Positions 7,072-63,980 of a stretch of 64,000 nucleotides of DNA are shown one piece after another. Every line of letters starts with the position of its first letter. Positions within the stretch are counted from its first letter, which is position 1. The translations under genes were made by a program, and so were the position numbers. The notes under the pieces are model-generated. The model did no database searches. It was not told where the DNA came from and saw only the letters and a program-made list of their open reading frames with translations. The stretch is taken from the NCBI GenBank assembly GCA_951406725.2, contig OX597814.1:117118001-117182000 (forward strand), written 5' to 3'. Origin of the DNA: Octopus vulgaris. Taxonomy: Eukaryota.

Positions 7072-7232
7072 GAAATAGGAAATCCGTTGGAAAAAACAAA
7101 AACAGAACAGAGGCGGAGCAAAACAAATCGAACTAGGCTCCTAAGAGCCCATGGTCAAACTGTTTATCAGTGTATGTTGAAAACGGGTGGTACCACCCGT
7201 TTTCAACATACCCGTTTTCACCCGTTTTCACC

Positions 7233-9015
7233 AAAATGTATTGTCAAACATGAAGTGGTTATTGTGTAGGATGAATTCAATTGATTTAGTAATGAATTCC
7301 TTACTGATCCTTTTTGGTATTTCTTCCGGAAATTGGTCTAACCAGAACTGTATTGCCTCCAGTCCATAATTATGAGGTATACTGGTATACAAGTTGACTA
7401 TAATGTTTGACAATACATTTTACCGTCAAAAATCCGGAATTGCTATGGGTACAAGGGCAGCACCAGTCATTGCGAACTTAACAATGGGATACATGGAAAT
7501 AATCATTTACCAGGAATCTCTATCAATCTTTGGAAACTCCCTCTCTCAAAACATAAAAGAGAATTGGAAACGATTCCTAGACGATTGTTTCATTCTCTGG
7601 AATGAAAACATAGATAAACTCCTAAAATTTAAAAACCTATTGAACAGCATAAACCCAAATATACAGTTCACAATGGAATACAACCAAAAGGAGCTCCCGT
7701 TCTTGGATATACTAATTAAAAAAATTAACCTTAAAATAGAAACAGACATTTTTTACAAAGCCACAGACGCCAAACAATACCTTCTTTTTAATTCATGCCA
7801 CCCAAGACACACTAAAACAAACATCCCCTTCAACCTTGCAAGAAGGATATGCACAATAGTGTCAGAACAAAATACCAGGAACTTTAGACTGCAAGAACTC
7901 AAAAACACCCTAATTGACAGACATTACCCAGCTCAACTCATAGAGGATGGGATCAGACGTGCAACAGAAATCAACATAGAAACTTTAAGAAAAGTTCAAC
8001 ACAACAACACACCTTCCCCGAAAATACTACCTTACATATCTACATACAACCCCAGAAACAAAGAAGCCTTCACCATCATCACCCAGAATTTACCAATACT
8101 TCATAAAAACCCAAAATTAAAGGAAATTCTAAACATACACCAAATCATTAAAAGCTACAAACAGCCTAAATCACTTAAAAAGATTCTCACAAAGGCAAAA
8201 TTGTCTTCTGAAATTACGGATGCAAAAGTAAAAAAATGTGGTAGATCGAACTGTGCAACATGTCCTAACCTATTGGAAGGATCAGAATTCTTCTTTAAAG
8301 AGGGACAGAAATTCAAGATCAAATCTAACTTTACTTGTGCCTCTGAAAACATAATTTATGTCATTAAATGCTCGGGCTGCCACCAAGACTACGTGGGTTC
8401 CACGGGACTATCACTCAGGCGTAGATGCACACTGCATCGACAACAAATTGCATTCCCAGAATATAGAATGATACCTTTTAGTGAGCACATTGAGAAATGC
8501 GCAAAGCAACTACTGCCACAATTTTTAATCTTCCCATTTTACCAATGTGCTTTCGGATCATCAACACAAATGAGACTGAACAAGGAAACATTCTTCATTG
8601 AATAGTACAAACCCAGACTCAACCATCCGAACATACTGACACAGAGAAATTAACAAGGAAATGGGAAAAAAATTTTTAAGCGATTATCTCCCTTACACCG
8701 GAAGAAATCACTCACTACCTCCCCTTATTTAGAAATCTCCTGAAAATAAACACAACGATAACTCCATGCAATATAAACATAACGTCACAAGAAATTTGAA
8801 AAGCTACACGCGAAACCGGTATTTCTTTAAAAATTTTCTTTAAAAATTATAAAATTATGTCATTTTAAGGAAAGGAAAAAAAATTTTTCCAATATTCTCC
8901 AGACATTTTGACACAAATATATAAATTTTTTTTAACATTTAAGCCTTCTGTCGTTTTTTCACTCTTTACCATTTTCTTATATATTCACCCACGTGCTTTA
9001 CCAAACAAACTTTCT
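7233..9015 (+). mobile_element. 5'-truncated, 5'-inverted Penelope-like retroelement (RT + GIY-YIG, with Cys linker)
   Basis: ORF 7394-8605: GIAMGTRAAP, RFLDD, LPFLD, KKCGRSNCATC, NIIYVIKCSGCHQDYVGST; premature TAG before YKPRLN. Inverted upstream RT piece NLYTSIP at 7233-7400 (-). Confidence 0.93.
8789..8827 (+). ncRNA. Hammerhead variant (U3-A8) in the 3' pLTR of the PLE
   Basis: aagaaa-t-TTGAAAA-GC tacac GC-GAAAC-CG-GTA-tttctt. Confidence 0.65.
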
Positions 9016-9025
9016 TATCTATCTA

Positions 9026-9092
<67 letters not shown>

Positions 9093-20211: not shown

Positions 20212-20345
20212 ATGCAAGGAAAATAAGACAAGGTAGAAAATGCTAAAATAGTTTTATCATGAAGGACATTTTAATACCGGTTTCAGTCATTGCGACTTTT
20301 TCAACTTAGAGCAAAATATGACAAACAATTAAATTCATTTCTGAA
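20212..20345 (-). mobile_element. PLE end related to the 45950-46390 arms, with U3-A8 hammerhead
   Basis: aag-TTGAAAA-AGTC gcaat GACT-GAAAC-CG-GTA at ~20274-20307; shared TAGAAAATGCTAA segment. Confidence 0.6.
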
Positions 20346-21711: not shown

Positions 21712-22423
21712 GTAAATATGTGTGTGTGTGCAATCTTTCGTGAAGATAAGATTGACAAAAAGTACTCCATTTAGTGAGAGATAAATATTCTCTAATGAAC
21801 ACTATAAATATTATGAGCTTCTAATAGATTCATGTGCGATGCAAACGACACAGAGATCCTTTAATAACATGTCTGGTACCTTTAAGCAATCTACAATCTT
21901 TGCACATGACATATATAAGCTTAGAGATAAGAGAAAATTCAAGAAAAATGCGAGAACTTAGAAGTAAAACGTGGAAGGTTGAAAATTTGCCAACAGGAAT
22001 ATGTCAATATGCTTACATATCTGTAATTCAGTAATACGATGATCATCTTACATGAGGAAAGGATCTGTGATCTTTCAGCAATGGATTATTTCCAATATTT
22101 AAAATGTGGCATGTTTTATTTATCTATGTTTTTTTATGTTTCCTACTTGATAGCATGTGATATGGCGTTAGATTTCAAAACCCTATACGTGGCTAGCCAC
22201 TGTAGTGGTTTTTACTTTTATTCCTGTGCCGGAATGAGGATACCTAGTCAGCATAGCAATTTTTGAAGTCGCCCTCACAAATCACTGAGCAAATTTTATT
22301 TTCGGTCATGTTGTCATTTTGCCTTGTAAACTCTGCCTTATATATCATGGAAATAATTAGGCACCCCTGGTCGAAAGGATAAATTCTTCGGTCTTGACAT
22401 TTATCTCTCTCTCTCTCTCTCTC

Positions 22424-24221
<1,798 letters not shown>

Positions 24222-29860: not shown

Positions 29861-29912
29861 GACATACATATCTACATACATACAGACAGACACACACACA
29901 CATATATATATA

Positions 29913-30318
29913 GGCGTAGGAGGGGTTGTGTGGTAAGTAGCTTGCTTAAGAACCACACGGTTCCGGGTTCAGTCCAACTGCATGGCACATTAGAGAAATG
30001 TCTTCTGTTTGAGCCTCGGGTTGACCAAAGCCTTGTGAGTGGATTTGGTAGACGGAGACTGAAAGAAGCCCATCATATATATGTATATATATATGTATAT
30101 GTGTGTATATGTTTGTGTGTCTGTGTTTGCCCCTCCCCCAATCTCTTGACAACCGATGCTGGTGTTTACGTGGCCGTAACTTAGCGGTTCGGCAAAAAGA
30201 CCGATAGAATGAGAACTAGGCTTACAAGGAATGAGTCCTGGGGTCGATTTGCTCGGCTAAAGCGGTGCTCCAGCATGGCCTCAGTCACATGACTGAAACA
30301 AGGAAAAGAGTAAAAGAT
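29913..30318 (+). mobile_element. Full-length tRNA-derived SINE family A
   Basis: A box TGTGTGG, B box GGTTCAGTCC, core, internal microsatellite, 3' tail GACTGAAAC-AAAAGA. Confidence 0.85.
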
Positions 30319-31704: not shown

Positions 31705-32355
31705 TAAAAGAAATAAAACATATGCGTATATATAAACATATATGTACGTACCTACCTCTACATGTACATATACACGCATATAGGAGTACAGGACACCAAA
31801 GGGACGTCGAACACATAGAGAAACGAAAACATAGACACAAACCAAAGGAACAGGACATTTTTTTAAAAACAACAAAACAACGAAAAAACCACTTCTTCAG
31901 TCGCTAAGGTTTCATCTACTCTACGTTTCGAAGGATAAAAGCGAGACGTATCTTCGACAAGAAACTTTCCTTCCTGCGAAAAGCAAATCAATTAAAATTC
32001 TGAGATCTTTTCGCAGAGGGGTAAAAAATGGTAAAAAAACGAGACAGTAACGACAGTACAAAAATATAGACAGTAAAAAAAAATATATATATATATAAAC
32101 AGTAAAAAAATATATAAAACAGTAAAAGACAGGACAGGAGAACAAGATAAGAAGGGCTGTTGACGCCGAACGAAAAAAGTATTGCATATATACGACGGGC
32201 TTCTTTCAATTTCCGTCTACCAAATCCAATCACAAGGCTTTGGTCGGCCCGAGGCTATAGTAGAAGGCACTTGCCCAAGAACCCACGCAGTGGGACTGAA
32301 CCCGGAACCATGTGGCTCGTAAGCAAGCAACGTACCACACAGTCACTCCTACGCC
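31440..32355 (-). mobile_element. SINE family A interrupted in its internal (TA)n by element 31700-32187
   Basis: Both halves match 29913-30318. Confidence 0.8.
31700..32187 (-). mobile_element. (TA)n-inserted PLE-like non-autonomous element, same family as 54690-55305
   Basis: Reverse complement of ~54860-55305. Confidence 0.7.
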
Positions 32356-32908
32356 TACCTCTTGTTCATAATTTGGAAATAATTACATTACTGCAAACCG
32401 TTTAGTACTGTCTTGTAAACTTTCTTACAATTTCCCATACTTAGAACCACAAATATTTATATATATATTCGATAGCATTTATGTTTTAGCGGTTCTGTTT
32501 ATAGGTTTCTTAATATATCGATCTGTTTCCGTTAAATGTTATGATTTTAGTTTGATTGCAATTGTAAAAGTATGTAGTGAGCTTCTCTATATGTAGAAAC
32601 AGCATCGTAGGATAATCCTAATATTGGACATACACTTTATTTGCATTCCCCCTATCCTTACGATATTTATCATCGAGGCTATTAAAATATTGAATTTTCT
32701 CTTTGATATAATATTACTTCTCGTGTATCATCACATTTAATGTTTCTGTTTCCACTCTCTATAGTGTTGCATAACACTGCGAAGCAATTATTAAAGGAAT
32801 CATCTATACGAACAAATACAATATTGATTGAAGCCTTCCCTGAATAATCTCATCGGAAAGCAAAAGGAACTATAATCAAAATACACACATACATACATAC
32901 ATATATAT

Positions 32909-45300: not shown

Positions 45301-45918
45301 CAATGCCGTATACTGAACAGGGTCCCCTGATAGCTATATGCTAAATGATTTAGACACCATCTGTTAGCATGTCCCAACGATTCATACCACGGACGAAATT
45401 CAATTATAAAATTCAATTATGAATTGATATTCGTGGGTCGGCTGCGGTTTGTAAGAGTGAGAGAAAATTTTCTCTATGTACCTGGTGTAAAAAAAAAGAA
45501 GAACACCTGAAAGTAAGTTACTGGCAAGCGAGGTGATTCACAAAAGAGCCTGACTCTGACACAAATGGAAATATTTAGGCAGCTGATGTCTTTGATACGG
45601 ATCTATATAAGTTCATAACAATATTAACACATTCCTACAGTATTTCAATGTGGGAAAATAGGGTAGCGACTCAGCTGCCAGGATGCTTCGCGATTCACCG
45701 GTCGCTCCCCGGAGATATCTCACAGAATCTTGTACGATAATCGAATAGCATAGAGCGTTCACCTCTAATTCATAATCCATATATCTATGTGCGCGTGTGT
45801 GTGTGTGTGTATGTATATATGCCACCTACACGTTTTATAAATATATATACACATATATACATATACACATATATACATATATACATACACACACATATAC
45901 ATACACACACACACACAC

Positions 45919-45949
<31 letters not shown>

Positions 45950-45956
<7 letters not shown>

Positions 45957-46390
45957 GAAAAAACAAGTCAAAAATAGAAAATGCTAAGATAATTTTATAG
46001 TGAATCTTTCAGTATCGGTTTCGGTCATTTTGAGACCTTTTCAACTGTAACGATTAAATAATTAAATTTAGAAAAATTAGAAGAAAAGTTTTTTTAAAGA
46101 AATATTTCCATAGTAGTGTTCAGATATAAGTGGCATTCTGCCTTTCTCTGACTCCCTTGTTTGCACTTGGGAGTGCAAACAAGGGAGTCAGAGAAAGGCA
46201 GAATGCTACTTATATCTGAACACTACTACAGAAATATTCTTTTAAAAAAACTTTTCTTCTAATTTTTCTAAATTTAATTATTTAATCGTTACAGTTGAAA
46301 AGGTCTCAAAATGACCGAAACCGGTACTGAAAGATTCACTATAAAATTATCTTAGCATTTTCTATTTTTGACTTGTTTTTTCATATATAT
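45950..46390. mobile_element. Near-perfect palindromic element of two inverted PLE 3' ends
   Basis: Arms of ~215 bp around a 4-nt loop TGGG (46168-46171), (TA)n both sides; hammerheads at 46010-46047 (-) and 46292-46329 (+). Confidence 0.9.
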
Positions 46391-46416
46391 CAACTCGTGT
46401 GTTCCTTTCCACCCTT

Positions 46417-46469
<53 letters not shown>

Positions 46470-48207: not shown

Positions 48208-50424
<2,217 letters not shown>

Positions 50425-61257: not shown

Positions 61258-61448
61258 TTGTTATTATTGCCTACAAGGGAACGAACATAGAGGGGACACA
61301 CAAGGACAGACAAAGGGATTAAGTCGCTTACATCGACCCCAGGGCGTTACTGGTACTTAATTTATCGATCCTGAAAGGATGAAAGACAAAGTCGACCTCG
61401 GCGGAATTTGAACTCAGAACGCAACAGCAAACGAAATAATACAAAGCA
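61258..61448 (-). mobile_element. SINE family B, 5'-truncated
   Basis: Matches 11960-12150. Confidence 0.8.
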
Positions 61449-61453
61449 TAATG

Positions 61454-61511
<58 letters not shown>

Positions 61512-61578
61512 TAACAATAACAACAACAACAATTATAACAATAACAACAACGACAATAATAATACTAATAACATTAAA

Positions 61579-61639
<61 letters not shown>

Positions 61640-61644
<5 letters not shown>

Positions 61645-63980
61645 ATTTAATAGCATTATGAATAACCCGGAAAAAACACCACGTTGGATGGCAAATGGTA
61701 TTACTTACCTCCTCCCCCAAAATAACAAAACGAAAGACCCAAAAAACTACCGGCCTATAACATGTTTATCTACTACCTATAAGATTTTGACATCTATTCT
61801 AGTAGAGAAAACATATACGTTTATGGAAGAGAATAACCTCTTTCCCACTGAACAAAAAGGATGCAGACGAGGCTCATACGGATGCAAAGATCAGCTCCTA
61901 ATTAATCGCATGATCCTTGAGAACTGCCATAACAAGCGCAGAAATCTCAGCTCTTCATAGATTGATTATAAAAAAGCCTTTGACAGCATACCACATTCGT
62001 GGATTCTGAAATCGCTGGACAATTTCAAAATATCTCCTGTGATTTCAGATTTTTTAAAGTATAATATGTCACTATGGAACACGAAGCTCCAATTATATCA
62101 TTCTAATGGAGTATTGCACAACATTAGCATAAACTGTGTAATTTTCCAAGGTGACTCACTTTGACCACTAATTTTCTGCATAGCACTAATACCACTCTTA
62201 AGTGAACTGATATGGCTACAAAATTGACAAGAAAATAATCCATCTATTTTATAAGGATGACTTAAAGCTATATGGCAAAGATGATGAAGAGCTTCAAGGA
62301 TTATTACATACTGTGAAAGGATTCTGTGATGATATCGGGATGGAGTTTGGCATTGAAAAGTGTGCCAAAGCCACTTTTAAGAAAGGGAAATTGGTAAAGT
62401 CTATTTCAATCGAATTAGATGTCGAAATAGTAATAAAGGAACTTGAGCTAGAACAAACCTATAAATACCTAGGAATAAATGAAGGCTCTGGTATCCAGCT
62501 TGCAAGCATGAAAGAGAAGGTTAGGAAAGAATGTTATAGAAGAGTTGGAGCAGCTCTGAAGTCTGAGCTGAATGCATATAATAAGGTTTTAGCCATAAAC
62601 TCTTTAGCAGTACCAGTTGTTCTTTATAGCTTCAATGTGCCTAACTGGAATACCAGTGAAATAATGAAAATTGACAGAAAAATCCGCAAGCTACTGACTT
62701 GTAATAAGATGCACCATCCAAAGGCAGACGTGGATCGCCTTTACCTTCCCAGAGCTCAGGGAGATCGAGGTTTGATCCAGCTTGAACTTACATACAAAAC
62801 CACCACAATCGGACTGGCCAAATACCTTGAAGCAACCAACGATTGGATGCTAACACTTGTTGAAAAACATGAAAGACCTAAAAAATGTCACTCTATTCTC
62901 AAAGAGAGCAAAAAATTCGCTGCTGATCTCTTAGATACCCACGAGATTGAGCAGGCTGAAGGAAATGCGTCAACTGCAGCTGCAAAGAAAATAAAATTAA
63001 TTGCAAAGACAAAAGCACATGAAAATTTAGCTAGCAGATGGGAACAGAAACCTCTCCATGGTAACTATGTGGCCTGTAGCAAACAAGCTGATATCGACCA
63101 GAAACAAACGCACCAAAGGTTACGAAGCTCAGGGCGAAAATCAGAGAGTGAAGGTTTCATATTAGCTGCTCAAGACCAAAGCTTATTAACCCGGGACTAC
63201 CAAACCAATGTCATAAAAAATGGAGCTGACCCAAAATGCCGATTCTGTAACGATGAGATTGAAACAATAGACCACCTAATCTCAGGGTGTAGAGTCTTAG
63301 CACCTGCAGAATATAAAGCAAAACATGACAGAGTCGGCCAGTATTTACATTGGACAATATGTCGGCATTATAAAATCAAAACCGCTGACAAATGGTATAG
63401 ACATCATCCTGAAGTTGTGACTGAGGAAGAAAATGTGTCGATTCTATGGGACTTCCCCGTGCAGATCGACAGGACTATAAAAGCTAATAAACCGGATATT
63501 ATTATAAAAGATCAGACAAAAAGGACGTGTTTATTAATTGACACGAGTATTCCCTGTGATCACAATATAGCGGCGAAATAATTTGACAAGATTAGTAAAT
63601 ATAAAGACCTGCTAATAGGAATTGAAAAAATGTTGCATCTCAAGGCAACTACAGTACCAGTGATTGTAGGATCTCTAGGAATGATAAAAAAAGATACTGA
63701 AACCTATTCGAAAATGATTCCAGGTTTACCATCCCTACAGGAAGTGGAAAAAATCGTATTAACTGGAACGGCTCATGTACTGAGAAGAGCACTATCGCTG
63801 TGAAAATAACATCCATCCATGAATTTATTTATTTATTAATTTTTAAATACATATTTTATCTGTGAACTTCCGTGTGTAATCTGGGAATGCATACAATGCC
63901 CTTCTCTGCCCTAGGTGTATGGAAAGCACTCGGCGAGAAACGGAAGAAAATTTGAAGAAAGAAGGAAAGAACATAACAAT
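61640..63980 (+). mobile_element. 5'-truncated R4/Dong-clade LINE (RT + CCHC + RLE), disrupted
   Basis: NYRPITCL, IDYKKAFDS, FQGDSL, YKDDLKL, YKYLG, CRFC..ETIDHLISGC, KHD, KPDIII..LLID; (AAT)n on both sides. Confidence 0.92.

What the first reader, a model, noticed from the sequence alone, without database searches (positions are those of the whole stretch)
46292..46329. Hammerheads with a covaried U3-A8 core (UUGAAAA instead of CUGANGA)
Seen four times: 8789-8827 (+), ~20274-20307 (-), 46010-46047 (-) and 46292-46329 (+: cag-TTGAAAA-GGTC tcaaaat GACC-GAAAC-CG-GTA-ctg). Stems I and II differ between families but mostly keep pairing. Known: positions 3 and 8 form a tertiary Watson-Crick pair and rare U3-A8 variants exist. 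The palindromic ACCGGT stem III suggests a dimer-active form. Standard CUGANGA searches would miss this family.
Basis: partly seen in the sequence, partly recalled or inferred. Interest (0 to 1): 0.7.

Follow-up and report, generated by a model that had tools for sequence, protein, structure and literature searches.

The report
Penelope-element hammerhead, known U3-A8 core
The motif is a copy of the small hammerhead-shaped RNA that sits in the terminal repeat of Penelope-like jumping genes, present thousands of times in this animal genome and predicted to cut itself in pairs; its swapped U-A core pair is already in print for such elements, so this is a new example of a known thing.

Summary
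All four sites exist. They are minimal type I hammerhead motifs in the pseudo-LTRs of Penelope-like retroelements (RT + Cys linker + GIY-YIG). Genome-wide, TTGAAAA-N8-20-GAAACCGGTA matches 5,606 times against 8 for the reversed control; the CTGANGA version matches 22 times against 9. Across six families with unrelated stem I sequences, 26 of 30 stem I positions are Watson-Crick pairs (cross-family swaps: mean 9.2, max 16). N7 and H17 vary as hammerhead rules allow. Sites 46010 and 46292 are one truncated insertion plus its inverted copy on opposite strands, so they cannot pair in cis. Only 46292 is intact; the other three deviate. The variant is published: U3-A8 in nature (Perreault 2011) and in Schistosoma Penelope-like elements with about 1,300 hits and the same UUGAAAA core (Cervera and De la Pena 2014). 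This scan also noted it in other genomes. Cleavage is untested. One oddity: a young subfamily has amplified with a U3-G8 wobble and a one-base-short stem I junction. Verdict: new member of a known kind, low interest.

The parts
46292..46329 (+). Minimal type I hammerhead motif, family A, intact; U3-A8 core, 3-bp stem I, 4-bp stem II, ACCGGU helix III; predicted cut after A46326
   Evidence: same motif as in the full-length element L091
46010..46047 (-). Inverted duplicate of the same motif; palindrome broken (ACCGAU, change at 46015)
46172..46423 (+). 3' stub of a family A Penelope-like element (last ~220 nt of the 4,412-nt unit plus run-on, 96% to L091); its last 33 nt (46391-46423) are absent from the inverted arm, like the one-sided 30-40 bp 'tail' described for these elements
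   Evidence: PMC8557442 passages
45949..46167 (-). Inverted 5'-truncated copy of the stub (219 nt, 97% complementary, 4-nt spacer)
46424..46469 (.). (TA)n microsatellite flanking the insertion (a TA/TG-rich tract flanks the other side, about 45800-45948)
   Evidence: (TA)5 within 230 nt downstream in 26 of 30 genomic copies vs 20% window background
8790..8826 (+). Hammerhead motif, family C (2-bp stem II GC-TACAC-GC), one base short at the H17/stem I junction
7376..8605 (+). 3' part of a Penelope-like ORF: RT motifs, C-x4-C-x2-C linker, GIY-YIG-type endonuclease; 57% aa identity to family A; ends at a stop earlier than in relatives. The element runs about 7403-9026 with an inverted piece at 7207-7401
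   Evidence: no Pfam hit for this fragment at E 0.001, while full-length relatives hit RVT_1 and weakly GIY-YIG
20272..20307 (-). Hammerhead motif of an older family B-like copy (stem II AGTC/GACT), stem I decayed; lies in a 120-nt fragment (20216-20335) 89% like L017

Best explanation
The motif is a minimal type I hammerhead with a U3-A8 core carried in the pseudo-LTR of Penelope-like retroelements, and it likely cuts the element's own transcript after GUA, working as a pair whose ACCGGU palindromes would anneal into a shared helix III. Shown: the motif, its place about 700 nt (family A) or 190 nt (family C) behind the RT-endonuclease ORF and about 120 nt before the ORF1 start codon of the next unit, two copies 4,412 nt apart in a full-length tandem (L091), and conserved pairing across families. 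Inferred: a transcript started in the upstream repeat holds two motifs; they dimerise, slowly or with help from the element's protein, and release a unit-length RNA for translation or reverse transcription. The window copies are truncated insertion stubs and probably inert.
For: 5,606 matches vs 8 control plus 3,754 vs 51 for N7 = C/G/T (some overlap). ORFs with RT, Cys linker and GIY-YIG next to the motif in 7 of 10 stretches chosen for holding close motif pairs and in full-length tandems. Stem I: 26 of 30 Watson-Crick pairs over six hand-picked families, against mean 9.2 and max 16 for 265 cross-family swaps and 7-10 when slid by 1-2 nt. The 10.1-11.1 pair appears as G-C, G-U and A-U among related copies. 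H17 is A, C or U in amplified families; G17 gives 154 scattered matches (control 22), and C3-A8 gives 96 (control 14). Cofolding two copies forms the 6-bp intermolecular helix III with stems I and II kept (dimer -23.9 vs monomer -7.0 kcal/mol, core held unpaired), whereas the monomer cannot form helix III. U3-A8 was reported active in vitro (Perreault 2011 citing earlier work).
Against: No cleavage data. Published metazoan minimal hammerheads cleave weakly even as dimers, and the Anolis element's motif cleaved only with protein and was not needed for insertion in vitro. Stem II is only 2 bp in family C and 1 bp in family I. A subfamily with a U3-G8 wobble and a shifted stem I junction has amplified recently. 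Copy counts reflect amplification, not independent selection; only the between-family comparison speaks to selection, and I picked those families by eye.
Confidence: 0.8

Rival explanations
1. The hammerhead fold is kept mainly as a structural or protein-binding element of the retroelement RNA (for example near the reverse-transcription start), and cleavage is weak, protein-dependent or dispensable.
For: Anolis element: no cleavage without protein, catalytic mutants still insert in vitro, no RNA-seq reads ending at the cut site (PMC11167929 passages). Family D here amplified (59 of the first 100 listed U3-G8 matches; copies 97-99% alike; one open 775-aa ORF) despite a wobble core and a short junction.
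Against: The catalytic rules hold across families: invariant U4 G5 A6, A9, G12 A13 A14, and no amplified G17 or C3-A8 family. That pattern is easiest to explain by selection on chemistry. U3-G8 motifs are also listed in another animal's element (Saccoglossus) and may retain activity.
Confidence: 0.14
2. A decayed canonical hammerhead that drifted to UUGAAAA in an AT-rich genome and was carried along by amplifying elements without selection.
For: The genome is AT-rich, and both changes (C to T, G to A) are transitions towards A/T. Three of four window copies deviate from the intact form.
Against: Families whose ORFs are only about 67% alike in DNA and whose stems share no sequence keep the core, the palindrome and the stem I pairing.
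Confidence: 0.04
3. In families A/B the stem I 5' strand (TTACAG directly before U3) is a 3' splice site, so splicing would swap stem I and switch the ribozyme, as described for Drosophila virilis Penelope.
For: A U-rich tract ending in CAG precedes the core; precedent in D. virilis.
Against: Families C, E and F have no AG at that place, and no strong donor site is visible upstream.
Confidence: 0.02

Closest known systems
Minimal hammerheads (min-HHR) of metazoan Penelope-like elements, U3-A8 variant of the Schistosoma mansoni Cercyon family (Cervera and De la Pena 2014, PMC4209133)
   Same: Type I topology, short stem I, palindromic helix III, place in pseudo-LTRs, many solo and opposite-strand copies, U3-A8 core. 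The supplementary alignment lists UUGAAAA (S. mansoni 4), UUGAAGA (Saccoglossus 1) and a CG-loop helix III without an extra base after A9 (shrimp).
   Different: Here U3-A8 goes together with a 6-nt ACCGGU palindrome in at least six families; stem II is short (1-5 bp against 7-8 bp in Schistosoma); families A and C lack the usual unpaired base after A9. No ACCGGU entry was found in the searched supplement.
Natural U3-A8 hammerheads (Perreault et al. 2011, PMC3088659)
   Same: Same compensatory swap of the 3-8 core pair.
   Different: That passage does not tie them to retroelements; the motifs here are minimal and predicted to need a partner.
Neptune/Nematis clades of endonuclease-bearing Penelope-like elements (Craig et al. 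2021, PMC8557442)
   Same: C-terminal GIY-YIG, CX2-5CxxC linker, (TA)n flanks, partial tandems, inverted 5'-truncated copies, one-sided tail, ORF1 separated by a frameshift.
   Different: Clade not fixed by a tree with reference elements.
Rfam Hammerhead_HH9 (RF02275)
   Same: Best ribozyme hit at the site.
   Different: 22.9 bits against a gathering score of 52; HH9 is a full canonical motif.

Membership tests
Minimal type I hammerhead of Penelope-like elements | Core YUGANRA ... GAAA ... UH with positions 3 and 8 able to pair | tested here: met
   U3-A8 in all four window copies; amplified families keep the core, N7 takes A/C/U, H17 takes A/C/U
Minimal type I hammerhead of Penelope-like elements | Stem I closing the 5' and 3' ends, with covariation | tested here: met
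   26 of 30 WC pairs over six families vs swap mean 9.2, max 16; 22 of 30 unselected copies have at least 3 bp; not met in the window copy at 20274 and shifted in the copy at 8789
Minimal type I hammerhead of Penelope-like elements | Stem II between A9 and G12 | tested here: met
   4 bp at the focal site; 23 of 30 copies have at least 2 bp; only 1-2 bp in families C, H, I
Minimal type I hammerhead of Penelope-like elements | Very short palindromic helix III that can form only between two copies | tested here: met
   ACCGGU self-duplex -8.3 kcal/mol and formed in cofolds, absent in monomers; broken in the 46010 copy
Minimal type I hammerhead of Penelope-like elements | Location in pseudo-LTRs flanking an RT ORF | tested here: met
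   L091, L093, L094, L095 (family A) and L096 (family D) hold two same-strand motifs around the ORFs; families E, F2 and G were not shown to lie beside an ORF (RT hits only near L114, L126, L101 among L101-L130)
Minimal type I hammerhead of Penelope-like elements | Self-cleavage 3' of H17 | not testable with these tools
   Only assembled contigs were offered, which cannot show RNA ends
Rfam canonical hammerhead families (HH9, clan CL00010) | Gathering score | tested here: not met
   22.9, 20.0 and 19.7 bits vs 52
Neptune/Nematis-type Penelope-like element | RT followed by CX2-5CxxC linker and C-terminal GIY-YIG | tested here: met
   CGRPNCGIC / CGRSNCATC linker, RVT_1 above cut-off, GIY-YIG E 0.0004 just below cut-off
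Neptune/Nematis-type Penelope-like element | Placement in an RT tree with reference elements | not tested
   No reference sequences were fetched

The most novel reading that the evidence does not exclude
This genome holds a natural experiment: a whole group of Penelope-like families fixed U3-A8 with an ACCGGU dimer helix, and one young offshoot (family D, about 100-130 copies, 97-99% alike, one open RT-endonuclease ORF) spread with a U3-G8 wobble and a one-base-short stem I junction. If family D is cleavage-dead while families A and C cut, self-cleavage is dispensable for retrotransposition in vivo, and the fold serves another role.
Probability: 0.2. Interest if true: 0.45.

Novelty: new member of a known kind. 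Interest (0 to 1): 0.15.

Why it matters
Modestly. It confirms that CUGANGA-only and Rfam-threshold searches miss several thousand hammerhead motifs in this genome, and it offers a panel of natural variants (U3-A8, U3-G8, stem II of 1-5 bp, H17 = A/C/U) in young, nearly intact elements. That panel could be used to ask what hammerheads do for Penelope-like elements, a question the read papers call unresolved. The core variant itself is in print since 2011 and 2014.

Tried and rejected
Rfam scans: only sub-threshold HH9 hits; the miRNA hits are microsatellite and hairpin artefacts. Pfam on the window's ORF fragment: no hit. Sequencing runs: no RNA holder listed; 14 holder runs were only guessed to be RNA. 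Four of them were laid as contigs on L091:2180-4000: one joint was listed (2218-2368, ends TA..AC, one run) and none ending at the CAG before U3; contigs cannot show ends, strand or absence, so this is no evidence either way. Splice-switch idea: set aside because the AG is not shared by other families. 'Four independent copies': rejected. In-cis dimer of the two 46-kb copies: rejected, they are on opposite strands. Two further loose U3-A8 pattern matches in the window (45303 -, 34304 -) lack stems and were treated as chance. Lunse et al. on dimer cleavage of such motifs is not held and is known here only through a review passage. A search for C3U/G8A kinetics found nothing useful, so the activity of U3-G8 is left open. 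The stem II count of 6 bp for family F allows a 2-nt loop and is overstated; 5 bp is realistic. No earlier notes exist on this genome.

Full report
Observation. The focal site reads CAG-TTGAAAA-GGTC-TCAAAAT-GACC-GAAA-CCGG-T-A-CTG at 46292-46329. In hammerhead numbering (recalled, and matching Fig. 1 as described in PMC4209133) this is stem I, U3-A9, stem II, G12-A15.1, a CG-looped helix III, U16.1, A17 and stem I again. The 46010 and 46292 sites are the arms of one 219-nt inverted repeat. Only 46292 is intact: 46010 has lost the palindrome, 8789 is one base short after GGT, and 20274 forms no stem I next to the core. Rfam scores the focal site at 22.9 bits for HH9, far below the gathering score of 52.

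Abundance. The window lies in a 2.8-Gb animal-type assembly (G000); the host was not determined. TTGAAAA-N8-20-GAAACCGGTA matches 5,606 times (reversed control 8), and TTGA[C/G/T]AA-N8-22-GAAACCGGTH 3,754 times (control 51; the sets overlap somewhat). With the same tail, CTGANGA gives 22 (control 9), CTGANAA 96 (control 14), TTGANGA 219 (control 9) and U3-A8 with G17 gives 154 (control 22). So the ACCGGU families are U3-A8 families, and a CUGANGA search would miss them. The same genome also holds many canonical loop-less motifs (YTGANRA...GAAACGTH: 35,882 matches, control 7,227).

Context. In 7 of 10 stretches chosen for close motif pairs the motif lies behind an ORF with RT motifs, a C-x4-C-x2-C linker and a GIY-YIG-type endonuclease. 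Seven of 30 loci that matched the 5' end of that ORF carry a same-strand motif about 1.35 kb upstream. L091 is a full unit: motifs 4,412 nt apart, an ORF1 start codon about 120 nt after the predicted cut, then a 784-aa RT-endonuclease frame overlapping ORF1 in the -1 frame. The window's 46-kb pair is the last 220 nt of such a unit (96% identical) with an inverted copy and a 33-nt one-sided tail, between TA repeats; 26 of the first 30 genomic copies have (TA)5 within 230 nt downstream, against 20% of random window positions. The 8789 motif follows a related, truncated ORF at 7376-8605 (57% aa identity). Partial tandems, inverted truncated copies, tails, TA targets and a frameshifted ORF1 are all described for Penelope-like elements (PMC8557442, passages).

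Is the fold selected? Copy numbers within a family are not independent, so I compared families. From loci in hand I took one natural copy for each of 11 motif types and kept six with unrelated stem I sequences (A, C, E, F, G1, G2), leaving out five near-duplicates (B, B2, H, I, F2). Of the 30 first stem I positions, 26 are Watson-Crick pairs; 265 cross-family swaps give a mean of 9.2 and at most 16, and sliding by 1-2 nt gives 7-10. The families were chosen by eye. N7 takes A, C or U and H17 takes A, C or U, while the rest of the core and the ACCGGU palindrome stay fixed. The G17 and C3-A8 matches are scattered over many families, as expected for decay after insertion. Among the first 30 unselected copies, 22 have at least 3 bp of stem I and 23 at least 2 bp of stem II.

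Mechanism. A single copy cannot form helix III (two pairs around a 2-nt loop). Two copies can: cofolding with the core unpaired gives stems I and II plus a 6-bp intermolecular helix (-23.9 vs -7.0 kcal/mol for the monomer). The likely role, inferred from the published model, is that a transcript spanning a tandem holds two motifs, which dimerise and cut after GUA to release a unit-length RNA. The two window copies at 46 kb face opposite ways and cannot do this in cis. Against a simple picture: such motifs cleave weakly in vitro; the Anolis motif needed protein and was dispensable for insertion in vitro (PMC11167929, passages); and family D here has spread with a U3-G8 wobble. Family D makes up 59 of the first 100 listed U3-G8 matches (hand count) and 71 of the first 100 listed short-junction matches (hand count), against 1 of the first 100 normal-junction matches; its copies are 97-99% alike and 94% like family C.

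Comparison with what is known. Perreault et al. 2011 (PMC3088659, passages) report natural U3-A8 hammerheads and cite in vitro activity. Cervera and De la Pena 2014 (PMC4209133; parts 1-2 of 4 of the main text; supplementary file 2 searched and part 2 of 3 read; file 1 could not be searched) report U3-A8 in Schistosoma Cercyon elements with about 1,300 hits, list UUGAAAA and UUGAAGA cores in element-linked motifs, and describe small palindromic helix III forms. A review (PMC6765202, passages) gives the dimer model. A 2026 preprint on retrozymes (passages) added nothing on this variant. Searches for this host group returned only PMC8557442, and 'hammerhead' with 'U3-A8' returned only PMC4209133; the library lacks most subscription papers, including Lunse et al., so these particular families may or may not be annotated elsewhere. 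Seven earlier notes of this scan describe variant-core motifs of the same kind in other genomes; they are unchecked and came after I had read the 2014 paper.

Verdict. Real, correctly read, well explained: a new member of a known kind. Interest 0.15. The one lead worth a bench test is family D.

Noticed in passing
L091:3860-3910 (family A) and L096, unit position 1514 (family D): ORF1 and the RT-endonuclease ORF overlap in the -1 frame at an in-frame T TTT TTA slippery-type heptamer that is kept in both families (67% DNA identity); in D it is followed by a G/C-rich stretch that could fold. A frameshifted ORF1 with pseudoknot is mentioned for these elements in PMC8557442 Fig. 1 legend.
   Followed up: partly
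L096-L098, L100 (G000, family D): Young subfamily with U3-G8 wobble core and a one-base-short stem I junction; its unconstrained dimer fold pairs the core with the downstream U-rich strand.
   Followed up: partly
L096:5759-5855 (-): A family D element begins 96 nt after a family A motif, i.e. one family inserted into or next to the tail of the other.
   Followed up: no
L103, L106, L110 and others (family F): Abundant U3-A8 family with UUGACAA core, 6-bp stem I and extra unpaired or mismatched bases on both sides of stem II; H17 differs by subfamily (A, C, U).
   Followed up: partly
G000 genome-wide: Tens of thousands of canonical loop-less minimal hammerhead motifs in several families (35,882 pattern matches vs 7,227 control).
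   Followed up: no
window 22361-23137 (+), 48553-50320 (+), 61412-63581 (+): Fragments of other non-LTR retrotransposons (zf-RVT, RVT_1, C2H2 hits).
   Followed up: no
window 29911-30083 and 32185-32357: 173-nt inverted repeat, 83% complementary, 2.1 kb apart.
   Followed up: no
L053:6360-7499 (-): 380-aa open frame resembling a PIF1-type helicase of a Helitron (by recalled motifs, no search) next to a family A element.
   Followed up: no
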